Assembly: GCA_016183225.1 (NCBI GenBank)
Contig: JACPEZ010000047.1
Coordinates: 1-58,904 of the forward strand
Direction of reading: 5' to 3'
DNA: 58,904 nt
Source: Candidatus Daviesbacteria bacterium
GTDB taxonomy: Bacteria > Patescibacteriota > Microgenomatia > Daviesbacterales > UBA10151
Made by a program: the position numbers and the translations under genes. The notes under the pieces are model-generated. The model was not told where the DNA came from. It was given only the letters and a program-made list of their open reading frames with translations, and did not search any database. Below, piece after piece: positions 1 to 58,563 of the stretch; the first letter of the stretch is position 1; every line of letters starts with the position of its first letter.

Positions 1-45
1 AGGGAAAGGGAAGCTACTCCTTTGGAGGCAAAAGGTTAGGGATAT

Positions 46-1110
46 ATGATCATTCTGGGGATTGAAACTACCTGTGATGAAACAGGAGCTGCCATTCTTC
101 AAATGAAAAATGGCCGAATAACTATTTTATCCAATGTGGTGGCATCAAGCGCGCCCCTGCAAGCTAAATATGGTGGAGTTATTCCCGAGCAGGCAGCCAG
201 AGAACAGATCCGCAGCATCATACCGGTCATTGATGCTGCAATTTCAAATTTCAAATTTCAAATTTCAAATTTAAACGCAATTGCGGTCAGTCAGGGCCCG
301 GGACTAATTGGATCGCTTTTGGTGGGAGTGGAAACAGCCAAGACTTTAAGTTTAATCTGGAAAAAACCCTTAATTCCCGTAAATCATTTAATCGGCCATT
401 TTTATGCAAACTGGATAGAAAGAGAGTCAAGTGTCAAGAGTCAGGAGTCAAGTGAAAAAAAATCTAGACTCTCGACTCTAGCGACTAGCCACTTACCTCA
501 ATTCCCCTGTCTTGGATTATTGGTTTCCGGAGGCCATACTGATTTGGTGCTTTTTACGAATCATGGAAAATATAAATATCTGGGAGGGACAAGGGATGAT
601 GCGGCTGGTGAGTGCTTTGACAAATGCGCCAGACTTTTGGGGTTGCCCTATCCGGGAGGCCCGGAAATCAGCAAACTAGCAGAAAAAGGCAAAGATATAT
701 ATAAATTACCCAGACCAATGATAAATGACGGCTGGGATTTTTCTTTTTCGGGACTTAAAACTGCCGTCGCATCCACCTTCAAGGAGTCAAAGCCCACCTT
801 GAAGGTGGAATGCAATCTGGCTGCCAGTATCGAAGCGGCGATTGTTGATGTTTTAGTAATAAAGACTATTAGGGCAGCTCAAAAATATAAAGTTGAACAA
901 ATTATTGTTGCCGGCGGCGTAGCGGCGAACGAGAAACTCGTTCGCAAGTTAAAAGTTCAAAGTGAAAAGTTAAAAGTTAAATTACACAATCCACCGCCAA
1001 ATCTTTGCACGGACAATGCTGCCATGATAGCGGCTGCGGCATTCTTTCAAAAACCAATAGCTGATCCGCTCAAACTCCAAGCCGATCCCAATCTGTCCCT
1101 GGCCTCTTGA
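46..1110 (+). CDS. tsaD: tRNA N6-adenosine threonylcarbamoyltransferase TsaD (Kae1/Gcp family)
   Basis: ILGIETTCDET N-terminus, GPGL, LVSGGHT and DDAAGE.FDK motifs at TsaD-like spacing. Carries an extra ~22-aa low-complexity loop (ESSVKSQESSEKKSRLSTLATS) encoded by a repeat element. Confidence 0.9.
   Translation: MIILGIETTCDETGAAILQMKNGRITILSNVVASSAPLQAKYGGVIPEQAAREQIRSIIPVIDAAISNFKFQISNLNAIAVSQGPGLIGSLLVGVETAKTLSLIWKKPLIPVNHLIGHFYANWIERESSVKSQESSEKKSRLSTLATSHLPQFPCLGLLVSGGHTDLVLFTNHGKYKYLGGTRDDAAGECFDKCARLLGLPYPGGPEISKLAEKGKDIYKLPRPMINDGWDFSFSGLKTAVASTFKESKPTLKVECNLAASIEAAIVDVLVIKTIRAAQKYKVEQIIVAGGVAANEKLVRKLKVQSEKLKVKLHNPPPNLCTDNAAMIAAAAFFQKPIADPLKLQADPNLSLAS
241..275. repeat. Heptamer tandem repeat (atttcaa x4 plus atttaaa) inside tsaD
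   Basis: Four perfect 7-nt units and one imperfect unit read directly. Translates as ISNFKFQISNLN in the tsaD frame. Confidence 0.9.
424..490. repeat. Bipartite heptamer element (gagtcaa-type x4, A8 spacer, tctagac-type x4) inside tsaD
   Basis: Units gagtcaa/gtgtcaa/gagtcag/gagtcaa, then gtg + aaaaaaaa, then tctagac/tctcgac/tctagcg/actagcc. A sibling element in opposite orientation lies at 43906-43972. Confidence 0.85.
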
Positions 1111-9297: not shown

Positions 9298-10496
9298 CTC
9301 TTTAAGAGTATGCCCACCTGCATTATTAAAATCAAGTATTCGGAAATTACCGTAATCCAGGAAGCAGCGATATAGCCATATTGAGGAATAAATACCAGGT
9401 TAGCCGCAATGTTTACTGTTAGCCCTAAAGCATAAACGATTAACAATTTTTTGTACATTTTTTTAGCTACCATCACCCACATCAGCAGCGCGGACAAAAA
9501 GTAGGCAGGGAAGCCAAAAGACAAAATGCGGAGCGACTCCACAGATCCGGCAAAACCCGATCCGGTAATTAATTTAATAATTACAGGGGATAAGTAATAA
9601 GTGATAAGTAATATGAATAGAGACAAAAATAACAGGCCCAGAGGGGCCAGTTTGGAAGTTTTGCGCGCTTTAAGCATCATCGGGTAATAAGAGTTCATCA
9701 AAAAAGCAGGCAGCACCAAAACGGCCTGAAAAACCGAATAAGCCACATTGTAAATTCCAACTTCAGCCAAGCCTTTAAAAAAAGAGAGAATAAAAGCATC
9801 GGCCCTAAAATAGATGATATTTAAAAATAGGGTTGCTGCCAGAGGAAGACTGCCTTGAAATAAAGCAACCAGATATTTTTTGCTAAAAATGGGGGAGAGT
9901 TGTTTAATAATTCTTCTGACCAGGAGTAACAGCAGGCCGGTATAAATAAGCCACGATAAAACATAACCAACAGTCAATAAATACACAGGCGCGCGAACGC
10001 TTGACAAATAAAAAATCAATAACACCCCTGCCGGAGCAGACAGAAAAACAGGCCAGCTAGAATATTCGTATTTCAGATTAACTTGAATTAACGCTTGAGC
10101 GGTGAAAAACAGGCTGTTTAAAAAAATAGATAATGCGCCAACCAAAACAGCCAGTTTAAAATCAACCAGCCCGGGTGTAAAAATTAGCGGCAAGGCAGCT
10201 GCCAGAATTGTTAAAAATATTCCCCATAAAATCCTCACCCCCAGCAGTTTTCCCCATTCATTCCGTAACCTGTAACCTGTAACCTGTAACCTTCTTAAAA
10301 TATATCCGTTAAAACCAAAATCCGCTAAAACATAAAAAAAGGCCAGGTAAGTAAGGGCCAGAGTAAAATTTCCCACTCCGCCTTCACCATAAACGCGGGA
10401 AACTATTCCCAAAATAATAAACCCGCTGGAAGTGGTAACCGCTTTAAAAACCAGCTGCCATCCGGTCTGCTGGGTAATTTTAATAATTTTTTGCAC
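9294..10496 (-). CDS. Polysaccharide flippase-like membrane protein (Wzx/MOP-like)
   Basis: About 12 TM segments, envelope-gene neighbourhood, 4-nt overlap with rnhA. Confidence 0.55.
   Translation of the reverse strand: MQKIIKITQQTGWQLVFKAVTTSSGFIILGIVSRVYGEGGVGNFTLALTYLAFFYVLADFGFNGYILRRLQVTGYRLRNEWGKLLGVRILWGIFLTILAAALPLIFTPGLVDFKLAVLVGALSIFLNSLFFTAQALIQVNLKYEYSSWPVFLSAPAGVLLIFYLSSVRAPVYLLTVGYVLSWLIYTGLLLLLVRRIIKQLSPIFSKKYLVALFQGSLPLAATLFLNIIYFRADAFILSFFKGLAEVGIYNVAYSVFQAVLVLPAFLMNSYYPMMLKARKTSKLAPLGLLFLSLFILLITYYLSPVIIKLITGSGFAGSVESLRILSFGFPAYFLSALLMWVMVAKKMYKKLLIVYALGLTVNIAANLVFIPQYGYIAASWITVISEYLILIMQVGILLKR
10265..10292. repeat. Heptamer tandem repeat (gtaacct x4) inside the flippase gene
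   Basis: Four perfect 7-nt units read directly. Encodes RLQVTGYRLR on the minus strand. Confidence 0.9.
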
Positions 10497-11628: not shown

Positions 11629-12130
11629 TTGATCCCTCGACTTCGCCCGCCTCTGGCGTGGCTTCGCTCGGGACAGGCTTTTGAGTTTTGAGTTTAATTA
11701 TTATGTGCCGGTCTCTGCCTTCTCCAACACTCTCGCTTTCCACCCCTTTAGTTTCCTGAACCACCATATGAACTATTCTTCTCTGCCAGGGGCTCATTGG
11801 TTCCAGTTCCAGCTCTTTCCCGCTGTCCAAAACCTGTTTTACCCAGGCTTTGGCGCTAGCGCTTAACTCTTCTTCTTTCTGCTTTCTCCATCCTCCCACA
11901 TCCAGAATGACTCTTTTATAGTCGCCTTCTGCCATCTTTCTGGAAACCATTTGATTGACAATAAGTTGCAACCCGTCCAAAGACTGGCCTCCCGAGCCGA
12001 TTAAACGGCCGGCATCTTTGGTTTCAATTAAAACATGGAGGCCGTTTTCATCCTCCTCAATTTCATAAGAACCCTCCAGGAGTAACAGCCCCAAAATGTT
12101 ATCTAAAACTTCGCTTAACTTTTCTTCCAT
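11606..12130 (-). CDS. jag: Jag-like KH/R3H RNA-binding protein
   Basis: KH GxxG (LIGSGGQSLD) and an R3H-like segment (PWQRRIVHMVV). Conserved position downstream of yidC. Confidence 0.75.
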   Translation of the reverse strand: MEEKLSEVLDNILGLLLLEGSYEIEEDENGLHVLIETKDAGRLIGSGGQSLDGLQLIVNQMVSRKMAEGDYKRVILDVGGWRKQKEEELSASAKAWVKQVLDSGKELELEPMSPWQRRIVHMVVQETKGVESESVGEGRDRHIIIKLKTQKPVPSEATPEAGEVEGSNVKTGKD

Positions 12131-12945
12131 AACCCCTCCAAACCTCCCCAGCCTGCCAGTTTATATTGCTGGATAATTCCCAGTACTGTATAGGTATTCC
12201 AGTAAATTGCCAGACCAACCGGAAACTGAAAGGCAAAATAGCCAATCATGATGGGCATCAGATAAACCATTTGCGACTGCACCTGACCCATGCTTTCTGC
12301 CATGCCTTCTTTTTCTTTTATTTCTTTGGGGCTTTCTCCGGCGTGGTGCTTGATTAACTTGGGCAAGGTCATTTTAGACTGGATAAAAGTCAGCGCGGCA
12401 GTAGCAACGGGGATTAAAAGCAGGGCCGGCCCGTATTTACCAAATTCCGAGGGCTTAACCCCTAAATTCAAACCGAAGAAATTAGGATCGGGCAAACCGG
12501 TTAAATGCATGGAGGGGAAATACAACAGCGAATTAACCCAGTCCAAATTGGCCTGGCCCGGCTGGCCGGGTAAAATATTAATAATGGCCTGATACAGCCC
12601 GATAAATACGGGAATCTGCAGAAGTGCCGGCAGACAACCCCCGGCCGGATTAACCCCGTGCTCTTTATAAAGAGCCATTTGGGCGCCGGCCAGCGCTTTT
12701 TTGTCGTCCTTGTGTTTTCTTTTCAGCTCATCCAGGTGGGGTTTTAAATCGCCCATCTTTTTGGTCATTTTAATCTGGGATGTCATCAGCGGCCAGACCA
12801 GCAGTCTGATGGCCACGGTTAAAATAATCAGGGCAAAGCCCAAGGCTCCCGGAATATGCAATGATTGCAAAAACTGGAAGGTGAGAAGTAAAAGATTAAT
12901 AATCGGCTGTATAAAGACGGCAATAAAAATATCCCCTATATTCAT
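12115..12945 (-). CDS. yidC: Membrane protein insertase YidC (short form)
   Basis: LLVWPL, QIKMTKKMGDLKP, YKEHGVNPAGGCLPALLQIPVF and GLAIYW motifs. The ATG at 12945 makes an ATGA overlap with the yidD stop. Confidence 0.85.
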   Translation of the reverse strand: MNIGDIFIAVFIQPIINLLLLTFQFLQSLHIPGALGFALIILTVAIRLLVWPLMTSQIKMTKKMGDLKPHLDELKRKHKDDKKALAGAQMALYKEHGVNPAGGCLPALLQIPVFIGLYQAIINILPGQPGQANLDWVNSLLYFPSMHLTGLPDPNFFGLNLGVKPSEFGKYGPALLLIPVATAALTFIQSKMTLPKLIKHHAGESPKEIKEKEGMAESMGQVQSQMVYLMPIMIGYFAFQFPVGLAIYWNTYTVLGIIQQYKLAGWGGLEGLWKKS

Positions 12946-13112
12946 CTGCAACTCCAAATTCTTTTAAGGCCCAAAGTTAACCCCCTGATTGCTCCCTCGT
13001 GCTCAATCATCCTTTTGGTATATTCGGAACAACTCACTTTATACTTGCAAAAGGCAAAATTTGATGAAAACAACTGGTAAAAATTTATTAGACTAATTAA
13101 TAATTTTTTCAT
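12942..13112 (-). CDS. yidD: Membrane protein insertion efficiency factor YidD (56 aa, absent from the ORF track)
   Basis: Hand translation gives MKKLLISLINFYQLFSSNFAFCKYKVSCSEYTKRMIEHEGAIRGLTLGLKRIWSCR, which fits the YidD pattern (YQ...C.F.P.CSEY...G...G..L...RI..C). Lies between rnpA and yidC as expected. Confidence 0.7.
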   Translation of the reverse strand: MKKLLISLINFYQLFSSNFAFCKYKVSCSEYTKRMIEHEGAIRGLTLGLKRIWSCR

Positions 13113-13431: not shown

Positions 13432-13568
13432 TAAATCGTCAGTCTCTTTCTGCCGCGCGCTCTTCTTGCCTGCAAAACCCTTTGTCCGTCGTGAGTTCTG
13501 GATCTTTTTAAAAACCCGTGCTTTTTTATCCTTTTTAATTTTTTCGGCTGGTAAGTTCGCTTCGGCAT
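13431..13568 (-). CDS. rpmH: 50S ribosomal protein L34 (45 aa, absent from the ORF track)
   Basis: Hand translation gives [45 protein letters not shown]. The stop shares one nucleotide with the rnpA ATG. Confidence 0.9.
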
Positions 13569-13572
13569 ATAA

Positions 13573-22201: not shown

Positions 22202-22202
22202 T

Positions 22203-23210
22203 TTATCCTTTTGCCATAACTATTAAAGGTGGGAGCACCCCTCCCTCCAGTTCAATCTGCAATATGTCAAAATTATACCCTTCTTTTTCCAATTCCAGAG
22301 TGTAAGTGCCGTTGGGTAAAGGGGTGGAACCGCTAAACTGGCCCAGCTTGTTGGTTTTTAGCGCTCTAACAGGCAGGCCTTCTTTGTCGTAGATCACTGT
22401 TACCACTGCCTCCAGATAATTTCCGGCCGGATCTTTGACAATGCCGTTTAAGACATTGGGAAAGGTGGTCAGGGCAACTTGGGTCTGTTTGGGTTTGACC
22501 GGAATAACTACCTTGACTTTTTCCACCGGCGGGGCAGGAGGCGCGGCAGCAGCAGGTTTAACTTCATCAAGCCGGCTTCTTATTTGCGAAGCTTGTGACA
22601 CCAGTTTTTGCAGCTCCGACATGATCTCGCTAACCTGCTGGCTGTAATCAATGGGGACAGGAGACGGTTTGGTAGCTTCGTTGCGGATTTGATGCAAAGC
22701 CCTCTCCGCCTGAATAATTTTGACCTGCAACCCCTGGGCCTGCCTGGCCAGATCAACTGTTTTGCCAAGATCCTCGGTGGTGGGAAGAGGAGCGGCAGCC
22801 GGAGCCGGCGGAGCGGGGGCGGCTATTGGAGCAGTTTCTTTGACAGGCTGGGGCCCCAGACTGGAAATATACATGACATAGCGGCTTTTAAAAAGCGGGT
22901 CCTCCCGGTAATCTTTCCCGGTTTTTCTCCAGGCTCTTCTGGTGGGAGAATAAATTGTTTTTAAAAAAGTGGCCACCCAGTAATCCAGGGGGCGGGAGGC
23001 AAAAGGCAAAAAGGCAAAAGCCAGACCCAGCAAACTGGAGATAATAATTAAAGGCCAGGTCACCAAAGGATAATCCTTGGCCACGGTTACAAACAAAAGA
23101 TAGGCAAACCCGGCCCCTCCGGCCAGATATAAAAACTGTTTTAAAGTCATGTCCCCGACCAGATGAAACTGGAAAGAGGTGACATTTTGCGGAATAGGAT
23201 GCGGTTCCAT
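22203..23210 (-). CDS. PrgI/VirB3-like membrane protein fused to a coiled-coil and a CarboxypepD_reg-like beta-sandwich
   Basis: FQFHLVGDMTLKQFLYLAGGAGFAYLLFV matches the PrgI-family N-terminus. C-terminal GIVKDPAGNYLEAVVTVIYD...GTYTLELEKEGYNF is carboxypeptidase-regulatory-like. Start set to ATG MEPHPIPQ. Confidence 0.6.
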   Translation of the reverse strand: MEPHPIPQNVTSFQFHLVGDMTLKQFLYLAGGAGFAYLLFVTVAKDYPLVTWPLIIISSLLGLAFAFLPFASRPLDYWVATFLKTIYSPTRRAWRKTGKDYREDPLFKSRYVMYISSLGPQPVKETAPIAAPAPPAPAAAPLPTTEDLGKTVDLARQAQGLQVKIIQAERALHQIRNEATKPSPVPIDYSQQVSEIMSELQKLVSQASQIRSRLDEVKPAAAAPPAPPVEKVKVVIPVKPKQTQVALTTFPNVLNGIVKDPAGNYLEAVVTVIYDKEGLPVRALKTNKLGQFSGSTPLPNGTYTLELEKEGYNFDILQIELEGGVLPPLIVMAKG

Positions 23211-23264
23211 TTGATAGGGTAGTGAATAGCGTATAGAGAATAGGGTATAGTTGAATCGCAGCAC

Positions 23265-23282
23265 AACTATACGCTAAACGCT
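23265..23282. repeat. 18-bp direct repeat aactatacgctaaacgct (copy 1, overlaps the stop of the four-helix-bundle gene)
   Basis: Identical to 23667-23684. Embedded in heptamer-periodic tatacgc/taaacgc sequence. Confidence 0.85.
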
Positions 23283-23663
23283 ATTAACTAAACGCTTTAT
23301 AACTCCTCCTTTCTCTCTGTATACCATGACGTATAACATCTTGATGACTTCTACTAGTAATTCCTCCGATTTTCTAAAGCTCCCGGCTGGTGCCAACTTG
23401 AGCTCTTTAGAAATAATAAGTTGAGTATCTAATTCTAAAGCAGATCCATATGCTATTGAATAAAATTGTAAGTACTCTTTATGTGATCTTCTGGCGTATC
23501 CTTCAGCTATATTAGAAGGAATAGAGATAGCTGCTCTATGGATTTGAGAAATTATCACAAACTGTTCGTTTTTAGGGAATAAAACCGTTAATTTATAGAT
23601 CTCTTTTACAAGAGCGATCGATTTCTGCCAAACTATTAATTCTTTGTATGAATGTATCTGCAT
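23274..23663 (-). CDS. Four-helix-bundle protein (23S rRNA intervening-sequence protein / Avd family)
   Basis: YKELIVWQKS...FPKNEQF.IISQIHRAAISIPSNIAEGYARRS.KEYLQFYSIAYGSALELDTQL is the characteristic motif set of this family. Confidence 0.85.
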   Translation of the reverse strand: MQIHSYKELIVWQKSIALVKEIYKLTVLFPKNEQFVIISQIHRAAISIPSNIAEGYARRSHKEYLQFYSIAYGSALELDTQLIISKELKLAPAGSFRKSEELLVEVIKMLYVMVYREKGGVIKRLVNSV

Positions 23664-23666
23664 ATT

Positions 23667-23684
23667 AACTATACGCTAAACGCT
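23667..23684. repeat. 18-bp direct repeat aactatacgctaaacgct (copy 2, 3 nt upstream of the four-helix-bundle ATG)
   Basis: Identical to 23265-23282. A 12-bp inverted pair agcgtatagaga (23228-23239) / tctctatacgct (23687-23698) brackets both copies. Confidence 0.85.
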
Positions 23685-23770
23685 TCTCTCTATACGCTTT
23701 GTTATACATCGTGAAAATACTATAGTCTAGGGGTACAAAATAGGTCAAAAAATATACAATATACAGTATA

Positions 23771-23950: not shown

Positions 23951-25387
23951 ATGTCAGTAGAAACGCTACAAAATCACCCCATTCTCAAACAATATGATGT
24001 TTTAATTACACCTGATCCGGGCGGTAGACACGAACCTGATTTTTCTCTGGCTGATACAGAAGTCATTGCCAAGCCAATTGAGCGAATTTTACCCCCTGTA
24101 GAGTCTGGAACTACCTTTTCTTCATCCGGTTCTATAAATTTCCAAAGCGATTTTGAACGGATAGATAATCTGCATATAATTTTAGGCATGAGAGGAAAGC
24201 AAAGATTAGCCCATGACTGTGCATTTGAACGCGCCAGATATGAGCGGGCAATAACTGATGAAGAAAAACAGGCAGTAAAAAAAGGGGTACGCGTTAATAT
24301 GGAAAGAACTTTGTATGAAAGAGCTCACAGTACCCAAAGCACGATTGTGTATTATCAGGATGAAGAGGGTAGGATTTATCATCCGGATTTTCCCGGAGAA
24401 TCTTTTGATAGAATGCTGCAAAGAGGGGTGGAAAATAGTAAAAGGCAGGGATTTGTGGACTGCGAGCGTGAAGTGAAAGAGTTTGAGGGTTGGAAAGAAG
24501 TCATGGGAGTTTTATTTAATCCTCAAACACCAATTGGGACAAAAGAAATAGTTATTTCAGGTCCGGGCTTAAAGCAAGGTACAGCTTTTACGGATAATTT
24601 TGTGGATATTTTTACAAAGGCGGTTGATCCTGCCACAGGCAAGGCAGTGGTGGCCATGACCAGATTTGCATCAGGCGCAAGTTACCACGAATACAGGCAA
24701 ATCGCTGGCCGTCTTAATGCCAATTATTTTGCCGGCGGAAAGACAGAGGATGCGGAAATAGACATTTTTTTTAAAGAGCACCCCATTTTGATTGGCTCGA
24801 ATGATTTACGAGATGCTGCTCAATTGTTTAATGAGGAATTTTGCCAACAAAAAGGAGCACTGGAGGAAGAAAAAACCAGAGGTTATTTGGGGCAGTGTAG
24901 ATTGTTTATTTTGCACTATGCAGAAACTATCTGTGCCGGTTTTTTCGATCCGGAGCAGGTCAAATTGGCTTTTAATGCAACTATCAATAAATTTGATGAA
25001 GTTAGAAAAGGATTGATCGAAAGGGCCAACAGTACAGGCATACAAATTTTGGAGCCGGTCAGAGGGTTAAGGGAGAGGGTGGTAAGTTTTATAGATCAAG
25101 TTAATTATTATGGCAGAAGACAGGTTGAGGAGATGATGGTAGGGTGTGGTTTATCAGCAGGATTTTCCACAGGTAAATTAAAAGGGTTTTGGGGTAAGTT
25201 CACTGGTTTGATTTCAGGGATGATTGGGGGGATTGGCGGGCTGGTAGGACTTGGAGAATCAGACAGCATGGGGTCTTTGTATTTTCCCTGTCCTGCCTGC
25301 GGCGCCATTAATAAAAGACCAAGAGAAGGATATGTGGAAAGATGCCAAAATCCCGATTGCATTTCCCCGGAAGCAGTTTGTTGTTAA
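23951..25387 (+). CDS. Orphan protein (478 aa) with C-terminal Gly-zipper hydrophobic segment and zinc ribbon
   Basis: SD aggag precedes the ATG. C-terminus reads GLISGMIGGIGGLVGLG then CPACG...CQNPDC (CxxC...CxxxxC). No other motif recognised. Confidence 0.5.
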   Translation: MSVETLQNHPILKQYDVLITPDPGGRHEPDFSLADTEVIAKPIERILPPVESGTTFSSSGSINFQSDFERIDNLHIILGMRGKQRLAHDCAFERARYERAITDEEKQAVKKGVRVNMERTLYERAHSTQSTIVYYQDEEGRIYHPDFPGESFDRMLQRGVENSKRQGFVDCEREVKEFEGWKEVMGVLFNPQTPIGTKEIVISGPGLKQGTAFTDNFVDIFTKAVDPATGKAVVAMTRFASGASYHEYRQIAGRLNANYFAGGKTEDAEIDIFFKEHPILIGSNDLRDAAQLFNEEFCQQKGALEEEKTRGYLGQCRLFILHYAETICAGFFDPEQVKLAFNATINKFDEVRKGLIERANSTGIQILEPVRGLRERVVSFIDQVNYYGRRQVEEMMVGCGLSAGFSTGKLKGFWGKFTGLISGMIGGIGGLVGLGESDSMGSLYFPCPACGAINKRPREGYVERCQNPDCISPEAVCC

Positions 25388-32686: not shown

Positions 32687-32690
32687 ATTT

Positions 32691-34034: not shown

Positions 34035-34354
34035 AATGGTATCCCTCCTCTTCCCGGAGTAAATATCTCTCCGGCATACTTGGCAATAAAATAAGCCATC
34101 AGGGTAACCAGCAGGCCAATGATGGCCCATTTGATTCTGTTTCTGGCTTTGGCCAAGCTTTCTTTGTCTCCGCCGGCAAATATATAGGCCCAGGCTCCCC
34201 AGACAAACCAGAAAAAAGCCAGGAAAACCACCAGATAAAAGATAATGTTTAAAAGCGGGGAAATAATGCTGCCCAGATCCTTGAATTCGGTTTTTAATCC
34301 TGAAGGATTGGGAATGGGTGAAAAACCGGGAATTGTTAGAGCTAATTTATTCAT
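34031..34354 (-). CDS. VirB2/TrbC-like T4SS pilin paralog 5
   Basis: WGAWAYIFAGGDKESLAKARNRIKWAIIGLLVTLMAYF. Start set to ATG MNKLALT. Confidence 0.7.
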   Translation of the reverse strand: MNKLALTIPGFSPIPNPSGLKTEFKDLGSIISPLLNIIFYLVVFLAFFWFVWGAWAYIFAGGDKESLAKARNRIKWAIIGLLVTLMAYFIAKYAGEIFTPGRGGIPF

Positions 34355-34379
34355 AGTGACTAGTCGCAAGAATCGAGAG

Positions 34380-34736
34380 TCAAGTGGATTTTAACAAACC
34401 GCTTAAAACTCGAGCTGTTTCCATGTGTATTTCTAATATTTTCGCATAATCATCTTTACCAGTAAACTGTCTCTCATAAGCAAAATCAATAAAGAATTCT
34501 AATTCTGTTAAAGACCCCATTGCCATTTGGTAGAAATGCTTTCTATCCTTTAAGCCTCTTCTGCTATATCCTTCTGCAATATTAGCACAAACCGATAAAG
34601 CAGCCCGGCGCATTTGTGAAATCATTCCAAAAAGCTCATCTTTAGGGAATTTTGCTGTGATATCGTAAATTAAATGTGCCAACAAATTAGCTTTCTGCCA
34701 AGCAATGAGTTTTCTGTAGCCGCTATTGTTTCTCAT
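34380..34736 (-). CDS. Four-helix-bundle protein (23S rRNA intervening-sequence protein / Avd family), second copy
   Basis: YRKLIAWQKA...FPKDELFGMISQMRRAALSVCANIAEGYSRRG.KDRKHFYQMAMGSLTELEFF. The ATG at 34736 makes an ATGA overlap with the upstream gene stop. Confidence 0.85.
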   Translation of the reverse strand: MRNNSGYRKLIAWQKANLLAHLIYDITAKFPKDELFGMISQMRRAALSVCANIAEGYSRRGLKDRKHFYQMAMGSLTELEFFIDFAYERQFTGKDDYAKILEIHMETARVLSGLLKST

Positions 34737-36763: not shown

Positions 36764-36808
36764 TTTTCCCCATATTTTTACCTTAGCACAAATTTAATTT
36801 AGGGTCTA
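36764..36808. repeat. Direct repeat copy B (45 bp)
   Basis: ttttccccatatttttaccttagcacaaatttaatttagggtcta is identical to copy C. Contains the stop codon (cta) of ATPase 1. Confidence 0.9.
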
Positions 36809-37945
36809 GTTGTTTAAGAATTGTTCAAAATTATTCGGATAGATAATCTTATAAGTACTGTTTTTATAAACAGAGGTAAATTCTTTCCCCGCTGAAGTCA
36901 GTGTGGTTTTTTTGGGTGTGAACTTAAACTCAAAGGCTGTAAGCCTGCCTTCTTTTTCCTCGATTAAATCAATCTCCTTTTGGTCATAAGTGCGCCAAAA
37001 GTATAGATTAGCAACCTTTCTGCTGTTTTCAAGGGTTTTTAATCTTTCTATTACGCACAGGTTTTCAAACATTACTCCTTTATCTGTGCGCAAATTTAAT
37101 GGGTTAAAATTACGTATTAGAGCATTACGGAGACCCAAATCTACAAAGTAATATTTGGAGGTTTTAGAAATTTCTTTGCGTAAATTACGGCTGAACCCCC
37201 GAATATTAATAATTACAAACATTTTTCCCAAAAGGTCTAAATACTTCTCAACTATAATTTTCGAAAGCGATAAATTTTGCGCCAGTTCCTGAATGGATAC
37301 CTCGCTGCCGATTTGTAAAGCAAGAAGAGATAGCAAATCAATAATTTTTTTAGGTTTACGTATTGTTTCAAAGCTTAAGACATCTTTATACAAGTAATTA
37401 TTGATCAGTTCGTTAAGGTAAAGCTCTTTTTCCGCTTCAGAGGAAAGAGTGATAACCTTTGGGTATAGGCCAAACCGCAAAAATTCCCCGATTTTGGCAG
37501 GTACTGTTTCAAGTATATTTTTTGGCACTTCCGGTACTCCGAGAGGGTAGAGTGTAAAAGTGACAGACCTGCCTGTTAAAGGCTCGTTGATTTTATTTGC
37601 CAAATCAAAGGATGAAGAGCCTGAAGCTATAATGTGTATTTTTAGCGAGTCGAAAAGCAATTTTAGAACCAGACCAATGTTTTGAATTCTTTGAGCTTCG
37701 TCTATGACTAGCAGTTTATTTGCGCCAACGATCTTTTTTAACCGGTCCAAATCAGCTATACCAAACAATTCTTGCGTACGAAGATCGTCACCGGTAAAAA
37801 TTAAACACGTTGATTTAATTCCGTTTAATAATTGATTAATTAGGGTTGTTTTACCGGATTGTCTGGGTCCGTAAATTATAATTATTTTAGGCTCACCCAT
37901 GAGCTGTTTTTGAATTCTGGTAAGTATACTTCTATCAATTAGCAT
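36806..37945 (-). CDS. AAA-type ATPase with C-terminal DUF4143 (PD-(D/E)xK-like) domain, copy 1
   Basis: Walker A GPRQSGKTTL, Walker B LLVIDEAQ, C-terminal FWRTYDQKEIDLIEEK...FEFKF. Start set to ATG MLIDRS, preceded by TTGACA-17-TATACT. Confidence 0.8.
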   Translation of the reverse strand: MLIDRSILTRIQKQLMGEPKIIIIYGPRQSGKTTLINQLLNGIKSTCLIFTGDDLRTQELFGIADLDRLKKIVGANKLLVIDEAQRIQNIGLVLKLLFDSLKIHIIASGSSSFDLANKINEPLTGRSVTFTLYPLGVPEVPKNILETVPAKIGEFLRFGLYPKVITLSSEAEKELYLNELINNYLYKDVLSFETIRKPKKIIDLLSLLALQIGSEVSIQELAQNLSLSKIIVEKYLDLLGKMFVIINIRGFSRNLRKEISKTSKYYFVDLGLRNALIRNFNPLNLRTDKGVMFENLCVIERLKTLENSRKVANLYFWRTYDQKEIDLIEEKEGRLTAFEFKFTPKKTTLTSAGKEFTSVYKNSTYKIIYPNNFEQFLNN

Positions 37946-38052
37946 AAATTGAGTATAGTATAGTTTACTTAATTTGTCAAGAGGGAGAATATGGTAGCCC
38001 CGAACATTATTTTGGGAAAGTTTTAACAATATCCGTTTCTAATAATACCATA

Positions 38053-41900: not shown

Positions 41901-42114
41901 TTTATTGGTCACAAAGGAATTTTTGCTGGTTGTGAAAATTGCCATTTTGATAATTTTGGCATTTTACGCTATATTTGCTCTGATGGTGATAAGACAGGTG
42001 GATTTGATGAGTAAAACTTTAATTACTCAAGTTTCCCCGATCCTCTCGGCCTTTTCTATTTTGCATGCCGGAGTGGCCATTGGTTTGATCGTCTTGGCCT
42101 GGGGAATTTTATGA
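41878..42114 (+). CDS. Small two-TM membrane protein (78 aa)
   Basis: Internal ATG preceded by gggagggga. Two hydrophobic helices. Confidence 0.4.
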   Translation: MPTATPADLLVTKEFLLVVKIAILIILAFYAIFALMVIRQVDLMSKTLITQVSPILSAFSILHAGVAIGLIVLAWGIL

Positions 42115-43904
42115 GATTAAAAATAGCACAGGTAATCGGCTTAAATACGGACCAGCAGGCGGCCCAAGTAGTTTCACAGATACAGGATGCCGAGAATGCT
42201 TTTTTAGCTTTACTCCGGCTTAGTTGCGATGACGCTTTTACCAAAGGCAGACAGGCTCTGTCAGACCTGTCGGATTTTTACTTTGATTTTGAAGGCAGTC
42301 CGGCCCAGAAACTGACTGCCGCTTTTGCCGAAGGAGTCAAAAAATTTTCCGGCGAAGGTGAATACGACTTGTGTTTGGCTGCAGTATCGGGAAAAGTGCT
42401 GTATCTTACGGGACAGGGCCGGGTGGAAGTTTATTTAAAAAGAGAGGATAAGTTATCGCCGCTTTTGTCCACCGGTTCCGCCGGCGCTTTGATCTCGGGA
42501 TTTTTGGAAGAAGGGGACAAGTTAATGCTGGCAAGCAAAAGTTTGTCCGATTTGCTGGGTGAGGATTTGTCCAAATCAATGGATTTGCCTAAAGACGCAT
42601 GGGAAGAGGAAATGAGTTCCAAAGTGGCCCGGGCGGAGAGCGGGGAGGGAGGGCTGGCCGGGCTTTTTGCGCGGATAGATCAGCAGGATCAGGAAGATCA
42701 AAAGGAAGAAGAGTCTGTTATCAGCCTTCCCGGTCTACAGGAAAAAGAAATTATTCCTCCCCGGGCCAGGGCAATTCTGGCAAAACTTCTCGGATTTTTT
42801 CCCAAAAGCGGCCGGGGCAGATTGATTTTGGCTGTAGTTTTAATTATTATTATTGCTTTGGGAACAGGGTATCAGTATAAATTAGGTCGCGACAGGGAAA
42901 GGAATCTTCAATTCGATCAAGCCTTACAAGCTGCCAAAGATGATTTTAATGCTGCCAAAGGTTTAAGCAGCTTAAATCCGGCCGAGGCCAAGATTAAACT
43001 GGATACTGCCAAAGATAAAATTGGCCAAGCGCTGGTTCTAAAACCCAAAGACAGCGGCGCCCGGGATTTAAAAAACCAGATTGAACAGGAATCATCCTCT
43101 ATTTTGCAACAGGCGCAGGTAGCTGATTTTCCTTTGTTTTTGGATCTGGATCTGGTCAAAAAAGACTTTAAAGCTTATGCGTTAAGTTTTTCGGCCGGCA
43201 AAATACTGGTTTTGGATAGAACGCAATATTCCCTGGCTGCTATTGACGCTGCTAAAAAGAGCAATCAAATTCTGGCCGGGAAAAGTCAGCTGGGGGAAGC
43301 GCAACTATCTTCATTGAATGGCAATCTGGCTTTTAGCTACTCTGCTGACAAAGGATTGGTGCGTACCGATTTAACCAATCAAAAACAAACCCAGGTGGCT
43401 AAAGTTGACGAGGAATGGGGGAATATTGCAGACATGAGCGGCTTTGCCGGCAATGTTTATCTTTTGGATTCAACCAAGAATCAAGTCTGGAAGTATTTGC
43501 CAACTTCCGAGGGCTATTCCGGTAAAAGAGATTATCTTACTCAAAACACCAAGGCGGATTTTACCGGCAGTTTGCGGATGCAGATTGAATCTTCAATTTA
43601 TGTGTTGAAACAGGGAGGGGAGATACTGCGATTTACCAGGGGGGAGAAGGATAATTTTTCCTATTCAGGTTTACCCTCACCGGTCAAAGACCCCAAAAGT
43701 TTCTTTGTTTCCTCCGATACTGATGATTTGTATTTGCTGGATTCTGGCAACGCCAGACTTTTGGTCTTGACTAAAACCGGAGCCTATAAAGCCCAGTATC
43801 AAAGCGAGCGCTTTAGAGAGTTTTCCGACCTGGTAGTGGATGAAAAAGCTAAAAAGGTCTATTTGCTGGAAGGCAGTAAAATCTATACAATGGATCTCAA
43901 ATAA
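42111..43904 (+). CDS. Hypothetical single-pass membrane protein (597 aa)
   Basis: Cytoplasmic N-domain, TM (LILAVVLIIIIALG), beta-rich C-terminal ectodomain. ATGA overlap with the upstream gene. Confidence 0.5.
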   Translation: MRLKIAQVIGLNTDQQAAQVVSQIQDAENAFLALLRLSCDDAFTKGRQALSDLSDFYFDFEGSPAQKLTAAFAEGVKKFSGEGEYDLCLAAVSGKVLYLTGQGRVEVYLKREDKLSPLLSTGSAGALISGFLEEGDKLMLASKSLSDLLGEDLSKSMDLPKDAWEEEMSSKVARAESGEGGLAGLFARIDQQDQEDQKEEESVISLPGLQEKEIIPPRARAILAKLLGFFPKSGRGRLILAVVLIIIIALGTGYQYKLGRDRERNLQFDQALQAAKDDFNAAKGLSSLNPAEAKIKLDTAKDKIGQALVLKPKDSGARDLKNQIEQESSSILQQAQVADFPLFLDLDLVKKDFKAYALSFSAGKILVLDRTQYSLAAIDAAKKSNQILAGKSQLGEAQLSSLNGNLAFSYSADKGLVRTDLTNQKQTQVAKVDEEWGNIADMSGFAGNVYLLDSTKNQVWKYLPTSEGYSGKRDYLTQNTKADFTGSLRMQIESSIYVLKQGGEILRFTRGEKDNFSYSGLPSPVKDPKSFFVSSDTDDLYLLDSGNARLLVLTKTGAYKAQYQSERFREFSDLVVDEKAKKVYLLEGSKIYTMDLK

Positions 43905-43905
43905 G

Positions 43906-43972
43906 AGTCTAGTCGCTAGAGTCTAGAATCTAGTAAAATTAACCTTGACTCTTGACTCTTGACTCTAGTCAC
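43906..43972. repeat. Bipartite heptamer element (ctag-type x4, AT spacer, ttgactc x3-4), sibling of 424-490 in reverse orientation
   Basis: agtctag/tcgctag/agtctag/aatctag, then taaaattaacc, then ttgactc x3 + tagtcac. Exactly fills the gap between the upstream stop (43904) and the smpB ATG (43974). Confidence 0.85.
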
Positions 43973-43973
43973 T

Positions 43974-57714: not shown

Positions 57715-58563
57715 TTAAGAAATACCTGCCAGGAGAAAAACTCCTAGAAAGGTTACAATTGCCCCGATGATCTTTTTGGCAATATCTTCCCGCTCTCTTA
57801 GAAAGATAATGCCGGCAATAACTGCAAAGATAGTCATTCCGTGATAGATTGCAGTCACAATGCTGACAGAACCATGTTTAATAGCCAGCGTATATCCATA
57901 AAATGCAAAAAAATTGAAGATATTGAATAAAACTTTAAGACCCCATTTATTTGAAACAAATCCTTTGATTCTTGATTGTGGTGTCTTCATAAAAAGAGGG
58001 ATGATAAACACCGAAGGTAGCGACATCCAGGTGATTATGACCGGTAAAGACACATCACTGGAAACAGCTTTAATTAAAACTACCACCACTGCAGCAATTA
58101 AAGACATCAGCAGCGATATTTTAATGCCCTTGTCAATAAAAATTCTGTGAGGAGCAATAGCCATGCTTAAACCCAAAAATAAAATAACTATTCCAATATA
58201 GTCGATCAATTTTAAAGATTCTCCCAAAAACAAAAATGCTATTACAGCGACCCAAATCATTCTGGATCTTGAGACAATGGAAGATATTGATAGATGAGTG
58301 TGTTCGTGCATTTTCATGAATGTATAAACAGCCAGCGGTTCGATAAAACCCAAAAGCAGCAGCAGCGTGATAGTTTTCAAAGACCAATTAATATAAAAAT
58401 CAAAGAAAGCTAAAATCCCAAAAGCTAACACTCTGGATACCTCTAGACTTAGGGAAAAAGAAGCGGAATCTTTATCGTCTTTAATCAGATAGCGGGTGGT
58501 AAAGTTGGCTAAATTCGATGCCAGACCGGCACCAACAGCCAGCAAAAACCAGTATGGTCCCAT
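57715..58563 (-). CDS. EamA/DMT-family transporter
   Basis: Ten hydrophobic segments in two similar halves, ~280 aa. Confidence 0.6.
   Translation of the reverse strand: MGPYWFLLAVGAGLASNLANFTTRYLIKDDKDSASFSLSLEVSRVLAFGILAFFDFYINWSLKTITLLLLLGFIEPLAVYTFMKMHEHTHLSISSIVSRSRMIWVAVIAFLFLGESLKLIDYIGIVILFLGLSMAIAPHRIFIDKGIKISLLMSLIAAVVVVLIKAVSSDVSLPVIITWMSLPSVFIIPLFMKTPQSRIKGFVSNKWGLKVLFNIFNFFAFYGYTLAIKHGSVSIVTAIYHGMTIFAVIAGIIFLREREDIAKKIIGAIVTFLGVFLLAGIS

What the first reader, a model, noticed from the sequence alone, without database searches (positions are those of the whole stretch)
424..490. A dispersed bipartite heptamer element sits in-frame inside the essential gene tsaD
The stretch 424-490 is gagtcaa/gtgtcaa/gagtcag/gagtcaa, then gtg+A8, then tctagac/tctcgac/tctagcg/actagcc. 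The same architecture in reverse orientation exactly fills the intergenic gap before smpB (43906-43972: ctag-type x4, AT spacer, ttgactc x3). A partial copy (gtgactagtcgcaagaatcgagagtcaag) lies at 34355-34383. In tsaD it encodes ESSVKSQESSEKKSRLSTLATS, inserted where other TsaD proteins go almost directly from the second His-containing motif to LVSGGHT. An intergenic repeat family therefore appears to have colonised a conserved ORF without breaking the frame. The gagtc/gactc units of the two halves are complementary, so the element can form an imperfect hairpin.
Basis: partly seen in the sequence, partly recalled or inferred. Interest (0 to 1): 0.65.

Follow-up and report, generated by a model that had tools for sequence, protein, structure and literature searches.

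The report
Selfish heptamer hairpin translated within tsaD
A 70-base hairpin repeat made of seven-base units sits in frame inside the essential gene tsaD of a Microgenomates (CPR) bacterium and is translated as a floppy loop; it is a stripped-down copy of the 'intervening sequence' elements that carry a small four-helix-bundle gene, so these elements spread well beyond ribosomal RNA genes.

Summary
Window 424-490 is four GAGTCAA-type heptamers, GTG+A8, then four inverted CTNGACT-type heptamers. A reversed copy fills the gap before smpB (43905-43973), and a right-arm-only copy lies at 34354-34386.

It is a real dispersed family of about 70 nt (four heptamers, A-rich loop, four heptamers). It occurs at about 40 sites in Microgenomates metagenomes, and in frame in tsaD, gyrA, dnaX, a radA-like gene and a glycosyltransferase. 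ORF copies always use the only stop-free frame, and the would-be in-frame TAG is absent (0/8 versus 28/37 intergenic, p=1e-4). So the insert is translated. In TsaD it forms a ~23-residue disordered loop that solved TsaD structures and the closest relatives lack.

New finding: the long form of the family carries a PF05635 gene ('23S rRNA intervening-sequence protein') between the same two arms. Short copies keep both ends of that interior. Other PF05635 paralogs are bracketed by inverted arrays of about four heptamers with paralog-specific units. This holds in CPR, cyanobacteria, Riemerella and a true Azospirillum 23S IVS.

The tsaD insert is therefore a miniature, ORF-less IVS-like element. 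How it moves, and what the protein does, are inferred, not shown.

The parts
46..1110 (+). tsaD, the host gene (354 aa). The metal-binding motif H114/H118 lies just upstream of the insert.
   Evidence: ORF. 120 homologues, PF00814. Invariant catalytic residues retained. Solved TsaD homologues at E=2e-78.
424..451 (+). Left arm of the in-frame element: four heptamers, GAGTCAA GTGTCAA GAGTCAG GAGTCAA.
   Evidence: TRF finds period 7. Other tsaD lineages have differently homogenised units at this place.
452..462 (+). A-rich loop, GTGAAAAAAAA.
   Evidence: The loop is 9-13 nt and A-rich in the alignment of 24 copies.
463..493 (+). Right arm: TCTAGAC TCTCGAC TCTAGCG ACTAGCC ACT. It contains the family core CTNGACTCTAGCGACTAG.
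   Evidence: 82-94% identical between tsaD orthologues whose third codon positions are only 38-47% identical.
43905..43973 (-). Full intergenic copy in the opposite orientation. It fills the gap from the TAA of ORF 42111..43904 to the ATG of smpB at 43974.
   Evidence: Orthologous copies in L100 and L105, where SmpB is 77-78% identical.
34354..34386 (-). Right-arm-only copy, CTTGACTCTCGATTCTTGCGACTAGTCACT. It runs from the stop codon of IVP gene 2 to the ATG of a T4SS-pilin gene.
   Evidence: Orthologous to the right arms in L086, L092, L098, L147, L148, L149 and L162.
34380..34735 (-). PF05635 '23S rRNA intervening-sequence protein' gene (IVP 2). This is the cargo gene of the long form of the GAGTC element. 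In the window its left arm is missing and its ATG overlaps the upstream stop codon.
   Evidence: Pfam E=8e-31. Sequence. 75-88% identical homologues are bracketed by both arms in L092, L098, L147, L148, L149 and L162.
23204..23700 (-). Same class, different family. PF05635 gene IVP 1 (23274..23663) is flanked by GCGTATA/GCGTTTA heptamer arrays and their inverse. A further array of this family lies at 45398-45431.
   Evidence: Pfam E=9e-37. Family D10. Sequence. Flanks.

Best explanation
Window 424-493 is a miniature, ORF-less copy of an 'intervening-sequence-like' selfish element.

The full element is about 420 nt. It consists of four AGAGTCW heptamers, a short leader, a ~118-codon gene for a PF05635 four-helix-bundle protein (S23p/IVP, related to the Avd protein of diversity-generating retroelements), and four inverted heptamers (CTTGACT CTAGACT CTAGCGA CTAGTCA CT). 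The stop codon of the gene lies in the first of these inverted heptamers.

Internal deletion gives the ~70-nt hairpin: four heptamers, an A-rich loop, four heptamers. This short form is scattered through Microgenomates genomes. In these compact genomes it survives in two kinds of place. One is flush between a stop codon and the next start codon. The other is inside a gene, at a tolerant surface loop, in the sense orientation, in the one reading frame without stop codons, and only when the CTAG that would fall in frame reads CTCG, CTTG or CTCA instead.

In tsaD the element is translated passively into a hydrophilic, disordered ~23-residue loop directly after the HxxxH metal site. The arms then evolve by 7- and 14-nt slippage or conversion within the array.

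Shown: family membership, the long-form/short-form relation, translation of ORF copies, the loop position, and the general pairing of PF05635 genes with inverted heptamer arrays.

Inferred: that the PF05635 protein recognises its cognate arms and promotes spread or maintenance; that the RNA stem is an RNase III substrate, as in rRNA intervening sequences; and the route of transposition or conversion.
For: 1. Dispersed family. An exact-pattern scan for the 18-mer core found 84 metagenome stretches, about 40 of them non-redundant true copies with heptamer arms. The alignment of 24 copies shows a fixed 4+loop+4 architecture.

2. In-frame copies in unrelated genes. Beyond tsaD the hosts are GyrA, DnaX, a RadA-like protein and a GT1 glycosyltransferase. 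All are in sense orientation and all give ..ES.VK..ESS.KKSRLSTLATS... Only 1 of 6 frames of the consensus is open. The in-frame CTAG is absent in 0/8 ORF copies against 28/37 intergenic copies, Fisher p=1.1e-4.

3. TsaD loop. Residues 126-148 have pLDDT below 50 and no secondary structure. They do not align to solved TsaD structures. About half of 120 homologues have a 5-7-residue loop here.

4. Long form. In L092 (4094-4514) the two arms bracket a PF05635 gene, E=3e-32. The same holds in L098, L147, L148, L149 and L162. L086 has both arms around an apparently disrupted copy of the gene. Short copies L103 and L124 keep AAAACA.. plus ..AATCCACTTGACT, which are the two ends of the long form's interior.

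5. Cognate pairs. Other PF05635 paralogs carry other units. Examples are GATTTAA/TTAAATC in L097, at the same orthologous site as L092's GAGTC cassette although the two proteins are only 40% identical; GGGTATA/TATACCC in L092b; GCGTATA in window IVP 1; and TATCG/CGATA in L194, whose tsaD carries that same family at three sites. Six of 11 CPR IVP genes exceed the 99th percentile of 3000 random intervals for flank complementarity.

6. Beyond CPR. The same bracket is seen in 7 of 11 cyanobacterial plasmid genes, with arrays on one side only or in direct orientation in 3 more. It is also seen in Riemerella and in a true Azospirillum 23S rRNA IVS.

7. Literature. The Coxiella 23S IVS is a 428-nt selfish element with a 28-bp terminal stem, an S23p ORF and tandem heptamers before the ORF, and it is cut by RNase III (PMC4990558).
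Against: - No transposase, recombinase or target-site duplication was identified. Pfam scans of about 50 window proteins found none.
- No near-identical genome pair with a filled and an empty site was available for this family.
- Copies at orthologous sites (tsaD in 5 lineages, gyrA in 3, smpB upstream in 3) point to long vertical residence rather than frequent movement.
- The PF05635 protein has never been shown to bind nucleic acid sequence-specifically. The Coxiella authors think it is not even expressed.
- Conservation of the right arm among metagenome hits is partly by construction, because they were found with that 18-mer.
- The five tsaD copies show no compensatory changes.
- ORF copies are not significantly weaker hairpins than intergenic ones (p=0.11).
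Confidence: 0.75

Rival explanations
1. The hairpin is primarily a host cis-regulatory RNA or DNA element: an intercistronic stem that serves as an RNase III processing site or mRNA stabiliser, like REP stem-loops. On this view it is kept by selection at particular junctions, and the tsaD copy is an accidental by-product. This rival is compatible with a selfish origin.
For: All five orthologous junctions available between the upstream gene and smpB carry a hairpin of inverted heptamer arrays running from stop to start. They use three different unit sequences: GAGTC in the window, L100 and L105; GTCTACA in L092; GAAGTGA in L097. L092 and L097 were not selected for this site. Copies also sit inside operons, between atpE and atpF (L108, L158) and before dnaK (L099, L145) and ndk (L123, L137). 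The GTCTACA subfamily differs from GAGTCTA by a G-to-C change in one arm that is matched by C-to-G in the other arm, in all units. rRNA intervening-sequence stems are RNase III substrates (PMC4990558).
Against: Both orientations occur relative to the downstream gene, roughly 3:1, so no single RNA sequence is conserved. No U-tract terminator follows the stem. Most intergenic gaps in the window lack such hairpins. ORF-internal copies show no compensatory change. Different families at one site can equally be explained by replacement at the only permissive gap in a compact genome.
Confidence: 0.3
2. There is no dispersal. On this view each array arose locally by polymerase slippage, as simple heptameric repeats do, and the similarity between loci reflects a mutational or compositional preference for GAGTC/CTAG units.
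For: Period-7 arrays are about tenfold enriched genome-wide and have many unrelated units. At some sites, orthologues carry different units at the same position. Examples are tsaD codons 66-76 (AATTTCA in the window, CGCTTAA in L084) and the Jag C-terminus (AAACTCA in the window, AGAGTCA in L171). A slippage explanation for heptamer excess exists in the literature (Mrazek 2007, cited in PMC4692102).
Against: An exact non-periodic 18-mer (CTNGACTCTAGCGACTAG), the same loop and the same 4+loop+4 layout recur at about 40 unrelated loci and in five different genes. CTAG is otherwise avoided in the window (observed/expected 0.51), yet 9 of its 52 occurrences lie in the three copies. Short copies retain fragments of the IVP gene ends.
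Confidence: 0.05
3. The insert is an adaptive, lineage-specific TsaD loop selected at the protein level, for example for partner binding, and its nucleotide similarity to intergenic repeats is secondary.
For: The peptide ..SRLSTLATS.. is conserved in five tsaD lineages, and the length is fixed at 28 residues between WI and FP.
Against: The same peptide appears in GyrA, DnaX, a RadA-like protein and a glycosyltransferase. Close relatives do without it, and other lineages carry unrelated inserts of 24-28 residues at the same point. The model gives pLDDT below 50. Third codon positions in the insert are more conserved than in the gene (62-75% versus 38-47%), which points to constraint or recency at the DNA level rather than the protein level.
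Confidence: 0.05
4. The insert is an assembly or chimera artefact that places a repeat inside tsaD.
For: Short repeats can mislead metagenome assemblers.
Against: The same in-frame insert, at the same codon, is present in independent assemblies from ENA, NCBI and JGI: L081, L082/L083, L170 and L171. The reading frame stays open and synteny is intact.
Confidence: 0.01

Closest known systems
23S rRNA intervening sequences (IVS) that carry an S23p/PF05635 ORF (Coxiella, Leptospira, Brucella, Xanthomonas; also seen in CPR rRNA insertions)
   Same: The long form matches in size (about 421 nt in L092 against 428 nt in Coxiella). Both have terminal inverted repeats giving a stem of about 28 bp, which equals four heptamers. 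Both have tandem heptamers directly before the ORF and a PF05635 ORF in the loop. A true Azospirillum 23S IVS examined here has the same four-heptamer inverted arms.
   Different: The copies here are not in rRNA helices. They lie between protein genes and inside ORFs. An abundant ORF-less short form of about 70 nt exists, and several heptamer families coexist in one genome. RNase III excision is untested here.
Rickettsia palindromic elements (RPE; Ogata et al. 2000, via PMC10969869)
   Same: A dispersed palindromic repeat inserted in frame in unrelated housekeeping genes, translated, and placed where the protein fold tolerates it.
   Different: RPEs are 100-150 bp, are not built from heptamer arrays, have no known associated gene, and are unrelated in sequence and in host phylum.
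REP/REPIN elements with their RAYT transposase (PMC3116915, PMC3733652)
   Same: Short hairpin-forming extragenic repeats, subfamilies with changes matched across the two arms, and a cognate single-copy gene flanked by the repeats it is thought to act on.
   Different: The candidate partner here is a four-helix-bundle PF05635 protein, not a Y1 transposase. There is no GTAG or CGTC tag. The arms are tandem heptamers. ORF-internal copies occur.
Heptameric tandem repeats of cyanobacteria (STRR), Xanthomonas (GGGAATC) and Beggiatoaceae (TAACTGA) (PMC4692102, PMC4679880)
   Same: A strong excess of 7-nt tandem arrays, mostly next to start codons or between genes, sometimes as inverted pairs, with no known origin.
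   Different: Those studies did not link the arrays to a gene. Here arrays bracket PF05635 genes, including in Nostoc, Stanieria, Geminocystis and Anabaena plasmids. Arrays also occur inside essential ORFs.
Bacterial MITEs in general (ERIC, BOX, Correia, CIR)
   Same: A non-autonomous short derivative of a longer gene-bearing element, with terminal inverted repeats and occasional in-frame fusions.
   Different: No transposase-bearing parent and no target-site duplication were found. The 'parent' here carries only a ~118-aa four-helix-bundle gene.

Membership tests
S23p/PF05635-type intervening-sequence (IVS) element | PF05635 (S23p/IVP) ORF in the loop | tested here: met
   Met for the family's long form: L092 E=3e-32, window IVP 2 E=8e-31. 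The tsaD copy itself is the ORF-less short form.
S23p/PF05635-type intervening-sequence (IVS) element | Terminal inverted repeats forming a stem of about 28 bp | tested here: met
   Four-heptamer arms on both sides. Folds of -21 to -39 kcal/mol. Six of 11 CPR IVP genes lie above the 99th percentile of random controls.
S23p/PF05635-type intervening-sequence (IVS) element | Tandem heptamers immediately upstream of the ORF (as GACAGAT in Coxiella) | tested here: met
   for CPR, for other phyla, and PMC4990558.
S23p/PF05635-type intervening-sequence (IVS) element | Location in helix 25 or 45 of 23S rRNA | tested here: not met
   All window copies lie in or between protein-coding genes. Rfam finds no rRNA in the window.
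S23p/PF05635-type intervening-sequence (IVS) element | Excision from the transcript by RNase III | not testable with these tools
   Needs RNA end mapping or an in-vitro RNase III assay.
Rickettsia palindromic elements (RPE-like in-frame selfish DNA) | Dispersed repeat inserted in frame in several unrelated genes and translated | tested here: met
   Hosts are tsaD, gyrA, dnaX, a radA-like gene and a GT1 gene. There is a single open frame, and in-frame TAG is depleted with p=1e-4.
Rickettsia palindromic elements (RPE-like in-frame selfish DNA) | Sequence homology to RPE-1..10, 100-150 bp in length | not tested
   No RPE sequences were available. The length (about 70 nt), the heptamer build and the host phylum all differ, so this is an analogue, not a member.
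REP/REPIN-RAYT | GTAG or CGTC tag at one end of the palindrome | tested here: not met
   The ends read AGTGACTAG...CTAGTCACT.
REP/REPIN-RAYT | Associated Y1 (IS200/IS605-like) RAYT gene flanked by the repeats | tested here: not met
   No Y1 transposase among about 50 window proteins. The flanked gene is PF05635 instead. Only 59 kb was examined, so absence from the whole genome is not shown.
MITE | Terminal inverted repeats | tested here: met
MITE | Target-site duplication, and a parent IS that encodes a transposase | tested here: inconclusive
   No duplication is evident at 11 ORF junctions read from the flanks. No empty/filled pair of near-identical genomes was available. A gene-bearing parent exists, but it encodes no known transposase.
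Heptameric simple sequence repeats (STRR-like) | Tandem 7-nt units in excess over other periods | tested here: met
   15 period-7 arrays against 0-1 for periods 5, 6 and 8-12. Density is 25.5 per 100 kb in the window and 21.9 in relatives, against 2.5 in 1.2 Mb of other phyla.
DNA uptake sequences | A single short motif at a density of about one per kb | tested here: not met
   Three copies in 59 kb.

The most novel reading that the evidence does not exclude
PF05635 (S23p, '23S rRNA intervening-sequence protein', or 'four helix bundle protein') may be the sequence-specific partner of its own flanking inverted heptamer arrays. If so, IVS elements are one widespread class of mobile or self-maintaining cassette, with gene-bearing long forms and gene-less miniature hairpins, able to reside in rRNA, between genes and in frame inside essential genes. 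The unexplained heptamer repeats of cyanobacteria (STRR), of CPR and possibly of other lineages would then be their footprints.
Probability: 0.4. Interest if true: 0.85.

Novelty: new variant of a known kind. Interest (0 to 1): 0.72.

Why it matters
The origin of rRNA intervening sequences and the function of their S23p/PF05635 ORF have been open for over 30 years. The idea that the ORF serves mobility (Ralph and McClelland 1993, cited in PMC4990558) has had no genomic support. The excess of heptameric repeats in cyanobacteria, Xanthomonas and Beggiatoaceae has no known cause either.

This locus links the two questions. The same arms bracket a PF05635 gene in the long form and nothing in the short form. 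Different paralogs have different cognate heptamers. The pairing holds from CPR to cyanobacteria, Bacteroidota and a true rRNA IVS. That yields a directly testable hypothesis, protein-to-heptamer recognition, for a protein family of unknown function that is also related to the Avd protein of diversity-generating retroelements.

It also gives CPR bacteria their own case of translated selfish DNA inside essential genes (tsaD, gyrA, dnaX). This matters for annotation and for phylogenetics based on these marker proteins.

Tried and rejected
- The single genome-contig scan with TsaD was wasted. The pattern CTDNAAMI pulled in other phyla. Those 80 loci were reused only as negative controls for 7-nt periodicity.
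- Hairpin bridging a distant Shine-Dalgarno sequence to the AUG (dnaK copies L099, L145). Dropped because only 12 of 47 window genes have any SD-like motif and most copies have none.
- Promoter reading (TTGACT as a -35 box). The spacing to any -10-like hexamer and to the ATG does not fit; this was judged by reading the sequence.
- Restriction or methylation link (GANTC/GAGTC). GAGTC and GACTC are not avoided outside the copies (observed/expected 0.86-0.89), and no methyltransferase is present in the window.
- Selection for the hairpin in ORF copies. No compensatory pairs among the five tsaD copies. ORF copies are not significantly less stable than intergenic ones (p=0.11).
- Phage vector. The 15-mer core gives only chance hits in IMG/VR. 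GAGTCWAG x3 arrays occur in 16 viral contigs of unknown host, without the element architecture, except possibly L179.
- Literature searches for CPR heptamer or MITE-like repeats found nothing. The Elhai 2008 paper on small dispersed repeats in Nostoc is not held.
- Rfam reports nothing at any copy.
- The NJ tree of 120 TsaD proteins is too star-like to decide between gain and loss.
Full report
**1.

The window is a 41.8% G+C contig of a Microgenomates (CPR/Patescibacteria) bacterium. tsaD is the 354-codon ORF 46..1110.

- Positions 424-451 are four heptamers: GAGTCAA GTGTCAA GAGTCAG GAGTCAA.
- Positions 452-462 are GTG+A8.
- Positions 463-490 are TCTAGAC TCTCGAC TCTAGCG ACTAGCC, followed by ACT.
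- The reverse-oriented copy 43905-43973 runs from the TAA of ORF 42111..43904 to the ATG of smpB at 43974.
- A right-arm copy lies at 34354-34386.

The 13-mer CTCTAGCGACTAG is present exactly twice in the window. The two full copies align with score 57, against a contig-wide median of 12 and at most 25 for unrelated windows. A profile of 24 copies finds only these three places. The RNA folds are -21 to -28 kcal/mol, with z from -1.9 to -3.0.

**2. It is an insertion, and it is translated**

Solved TsaD structures align on both sides of query residues about 128-146 without a gap of their own. Of 120 Microgenomates homologues, about half have only 5-7 residues between HFYANWI and FPC. These include the window's closest relatives: P0002, P0004, P0005, P0006, P0008 and P0010. 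The empty site in L084 reads ..AACTGGATT TCTCAT CCACCAAATTTTCCC. An AlphaFold2 model gives pLDDT below 50 and no secondary structure for residues 126-148 only, while the catalytic His-His motif and other invariant residues are intact.

The same element occurs in frame in four other genes in other genomes: GyrA (L093, L095, L121), DnaX (L109), a RadA-like protein (L150) and a GT1 glycosyltransferase (L168). It is always in sense orientation and always reads ..ES.VK..ESS.KKSRLSTLATS... Only one of the six frames of the CAAG-type consensus is open, and none of the six for the CTAG-type consensus. At the unit where CTAG would put TAG in frame, ORF copies have C or T in 8 of 8 cases, whereas 28 of 37 intergenic copies have A (Fisher p=1.1e-4). 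Independent assemblies carry the tsaD insert, so it is not an artefact.

**3. History in tsaD**

Five lineages have the insert at the same codon and with the same length: the window, L081, L082, L170 and L171. L172 has a decayed stump.

- Gene-wide nucleotide identity is 66-70%, and third codon positions are 38-47% identical.
- The insert is 78-82% identical, with third positions at 62-75% and the right arm at 82-94%.
- The left arm is homogenised differently in each lineage: GGGTCAA x4, or alternating GAATCTA/GAGTCTA, or GAGTCAA/GAATCAA. This indicates conversion or slippage within the array without change of length.
- There are no compensatory pair changes, and several pairs are broken.
- The NJ tree scatters carriers of the insert, but it is poorly resolved.

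A single old gain followed by losses, and repeated gain of a standard-length element, both remain possible.

**4. The family**

A metagenome scan for CTNGACTCTAGCGACTAG returned 84 stretches. About 25 belong to an unrelated soil gene and a few are G+C-rich chance hits. About 40 non-redundant hits are true copies with AGAGTCW arrays. The architecture is fixed: four heptamers, a 9-13-nt A-rich loop, four heptamers, with ends AGTGACTAG...CTAGTCACT.

Intergenic copies lie flush with coding sequence. The end ..CACTA is followed within 0-9 nt by an ATG in most copies. Sites include:
- upstream of dnaK (L099, L145);
- between atpE and atpF (L108, L158);
- upstream of ndk (L123, L137);
- upstream of smpB (window, L100, L105; SmpB 77-78% identical).

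Shine-Dalgarno use is low in this genome (12 of 47 genes), so such placement is tolerable.

**5. The long form**

In L092 the two arms are 421 nt apart and enclose a 118-codon gene. The layout is: stop codon of the upstream gene, AGAATCTAGAATCGAGAGTCTAGAATCTAGG, AAAACAAA, a GTG start, the gene ending ...AAATCCACT, then TGA lying inside CTTGACT CTAGACT CTAGCGA CTAGTCA CT, then AACT and the ATG of a pilin gene. The gene is PF05635, '23S rRNA-intervening sequence protein', at E=3e-32, with a weaker bAvd-like hit.

The same bracket is seen in L098, L147, L148, L149 and L162, and in L086 around an apparently disrupted copy of the gene. The window's right-arm copy 34354-34386 directly follows the orthologous gene 34380..34735 (Pfam E=8e-31). 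Its left arm is gone. Short copies L103 and L124 retain AAAACA.. joined to ..AATCCA(C/T)TTGACT, which are the two ends of the long form's interior. The 70-nt hairpin is therefore an internal-deletion derivative, as a MITE is of its parent element.

**6. Cognate pairs**

Other PF05635 paralogs are bracketed by inverted four-heptamer arrays with other units.

- L097 has GATTTAA / TTAAATC. It sits at the same orthologous site as L092's cassette, between a gene ending ..LPGFGR* and the pilin gene, although the two proteins are only 40% identical.
- L092b has GGGTATA / TATACCC.
- Window IVP 1 (23274..23663) has GCGTATA/GCGTTTA and their inverse, with a further array of this family inside the ComF-like gene at 45398-45431.
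- L194 has TATCG / CGATA. Its tsaD carries that same family at three sites, including the loop after the His motif.

Six of 11 non-redundant CPR IVP genes exceed the 99th percentile of 3000 random 350-nt intervals for upstream/downstream complementarity. By eye the figure is 9-10 of 11.

At the smpB junction, two loci not chosen for that site carry hairpins of the same build but different units: GTCTACA / TGTAGAC in L092 and GAAGTGA in L097. The GTCTACA family is itself dispersed. It differs from GAGTCTA by one change per unit, matched in the opposite arm.

**7. Beyond CPR**

A tblastn search with window IVP 1 against 72,556 plasmids hits 33 records, nearly all cyanobacterial. All ten flanked genes checked are PF05635, E at most 3e-32. 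Inverted heptamer arrays bracket the gene in the following cases:

| Organism / record | Upstream unit / downstream unit |
|---|---|
| N. punctiforme pNPUN01 | GGGTGTA / TACACCC |
| N. punctiforme pNPUN02 | GGAGTCA / TGACTTC |
| Stanieria | GGCAGAA / TTCTGCC |
| Geminocystis | GGGAAAA / TTTTCCC |
| Nostoc C052 | GGGAACA / TGTTCCC |
| Anabaena 90 | GGTGACA / TGTCACC |
| Picosynechococcus | GGAGATA / TATCTCC |
| Riemerella | AAGGTTT / AAACCTT |
| Azospirillum, a true 23S rRNA IVS | GAGGACG / CCGTCCT |

Exceptions:
- Nostoc PCC 7120 alpha and gamma plasmids have a downstream array only; in the gamma plasmid record (L196) an ISL3 transposase gene ends just upstream, and the alpha record (L197) has no annotated gene there but a closely similar upstream sequence.
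- Pseudanabaena has long direct arrays.
- Gemmatirosa has direct octamers.
- Calothrix 7716 has none.

In 40 kb of the Nostoc C052 plasmid only seven array loci exist. One pair brackets the PF05635 gene. Another is a gene-less GGCAGAA...TTCTGCC hairpin.

The literature agrees. The Coxiella IVS is a 428-nt selfish element with a 28-bp terminal stem, an S23p ORF and two to four GACAGAT heptamers before the ORF, and it is excised by RNase III. The function of S23p is unknown, and a mobility role was only conjectured (PMC4990558). PF05635 ORFs occur in CPR rRNA insertions (PMC11270868). The family resembles the Avd protein of diversity-generating retroelements (PMC10053308). I found no paper that links PF05635 to heptamer repeats in general, or that describes such elements in CPR protein-coding genes.

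**8. Mechanism: shown and inferred**

Shown:
- membership of the tsaD insert in a dispersed family;
- derivation of the short form from a PF05635-bearing long form;
- translation of ORF copies in the only open frame;
- disordered-loop placement in TsaD;
- array evolution by within-array homogenisation;
- the cross-phylum pairing of PF05635 genes with inverted heptamer arrays.

Inferred:
- that the PF05635 protein recognises its arms and promotes copying or maintenance (by analogy with RAYT/REPIN and with Avd);
- that the transcript stem is an RNase III site;
- that new sites arise through a hairpin or single-strand intermediate.

Not found: any transposase, target-site duplication or recent insertion polymorphism for this family.

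**9. Comparison and verdict**

The element works like an RPE (translated selfish DNA in essential genes) and like a MITE or REPIN (the gene-less derivative of a gene-bearing hairpin element). By its parts it belongs with S23p-type intervening sequences, except for their defining rRNA location. I file it as a new variant of a known kind. The link between PF05635 and heptamer arrays is the part that deserves follow-up.

Noticed in passing
whole window, e.g. 240-272, 946-981, 9590-9613, 10265-10292, 21355-21476, 33957-34027, 39526-39554, 41201-41306: Tandem arrays of period 7 are about tenfold enriched: 15 arrays against 0-1 for periods 5, 6 and 8-12. Density is 25.5 per 100 kb in the window and 21.9 in tsaD-selected relatives, against 2.5 in 1.2 Mb from other phyla and 9.1 in Saccharibacteria loci. 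The units are many and unrelated.
   Followed up: yes
window 240-272 (tsaD codons 66-76): A perfect AATTTCA x4.7 array encodes ISNFKFQISNL with no length change relative to E. coli TsaD. Orthologues have other heptamer units at the same codons: CGCTTAA in L084, CCATCTT-type in L081, and CTTTACG plus a GC-rich palindrome in L082.
   Followed up: partly
window 946-981 (tsaD codons 301-313): The AAGTTAA-type array (KLKVQSEKLKVKL) is almost identical at the nucleotide level in four orthologues whose third codon positions are otherwise 38-55% identical. L082 has a 21-nt GC-rich palindrome (CCTGCCTGCCGGCGAGGCAGG, peptide LPAGEAG) inserted in it. L194 has a CGATAAA-type array of the same length there.
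   Followed up: partly
window 773-808 (tsaD): A perfect 12-bp inverted repeat, CCACCTTCAAGG...CCTTGAAGGTGG, lies inside the ORF. Orthologues have different but equally self-complementary sequences at the same place: CACCTCCGAGG/CCTCGGAGGTG in L081 and L082, and CACCCCCGAGGTG/CACCTCGGGGGTG in L084.
   Followed up: partly
TsaD loop after HFYANWI in 120 homologues (P0001-P0120): This one loop carries many unrelated inserts, often 24-28 residues long. Some are clearly 4+loop+4 heptamer hairpins of other families: CAGCTAT x4 in L193 and TATCG/CGATA in L194. Others are GC-rich palindromes (HLPGVKAHLEGV type). Near-identical proteins differ in insert state (P0032 versus P0084, P0014 versus P0016).
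   Followed up: partly
window 21350-21478 and 41195-41306: Two copies, in opposite orientation, of another hairpin family of 110-130 nt built from AAATTCG/CGAATTT heptamers. Both are intergenic.
   Followed up: no
window 11675-11696 versus L171 17856-17890: The C-terminal tail of the Jag (KH/R3H) protein is encoded by an AAACTCA array in the window and by an AGAGTCA array, which supplies the stop codon, in L171 at the same position.
   Followed up: partly
window 33951-34032, 39520-39559, 9587-9617, 10260-10295, 22991-23020, 13197-13219: Heptamer arrays encode parts of transmembrane or signal segments and loops in a T4SS pilin, a SpoIID-domain protein, a polysaccharide-synthesis protein, a PrgI-like protein and RnpA.
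   Followed up: partly
window, gene starts (e.g. 57715..58563, 25421, 36806..38029, 41325): Only 12 of 47 genes have any SD-like motif. Several have a TATAAT-like box 6-16 nt before the ATG, which suggests leaderless or very short-leader mRNAs.
   Followed up: no
window-wide; copies at 415-500, 34345-34395, 43895-43985: CTAG is avoided (observed/expected 0.51, the lowest of the 16 palindromic tetramers), yet 9 of its 52 occurrences lie in the three element copies, which make up 0.4% of the sequence.
   Followed up: yes
window 35803-35856, 36764-36817, 38053-38106, 39435-39456: A repeat of 22-54 nt, TTTTCCCCATATTTTTACCTTAGCAC.., lies at the 5' ends of neighbouring minus-strand genes, including two DUF4143/AAA_14 ATPase genes. 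It probably marks a shared start region of duplicated genes.
   Followed up: no
window 23831-23909: An AdoCbl-II riboswitch (40.7 bits) lies upstream of a 478-aa protein with no Pfam match (23951..25387).
   Followed up: no
window 12118-17032, 50300-52456, 19590-23264 and 32372-34369: Gene content of the window. Replication-origin neighbourhood: rnpA, yidC, jag, dnaA, dnaN. An AEP-TOTE primase-helicase. A T4SS-like cluster: TraG-like ATPase, PrgI-like protein, five pilin genes. Two AbiEii genes, one of them preceded by an AbiEi-like gene, and one PIN/Phd toxin-antitoxin pair. Competence genes: comF-like, dprA, comM-like. tmRNA lies right after smpB (44453-44818).
   Followed up: partly
cyanobacterial plasmids L202 (Anabaena 90), L210 (Pseudanabaena), L205 (Picosynechococcus): PF05635 cassettes with their heptamer arrays sit inside CRISPR-Cas operons: between cas6 and cas4, and between cas10 and cmr3.
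   Followed up: no
viral contigs L177-L192: GAGTCWAG x3 arrays occur in 16 IMG/VR contigs of unknown host. L179 has an inverted pair, GAGTCAAG x3 ... CTTTTGACT x3.
   Followed up: partly
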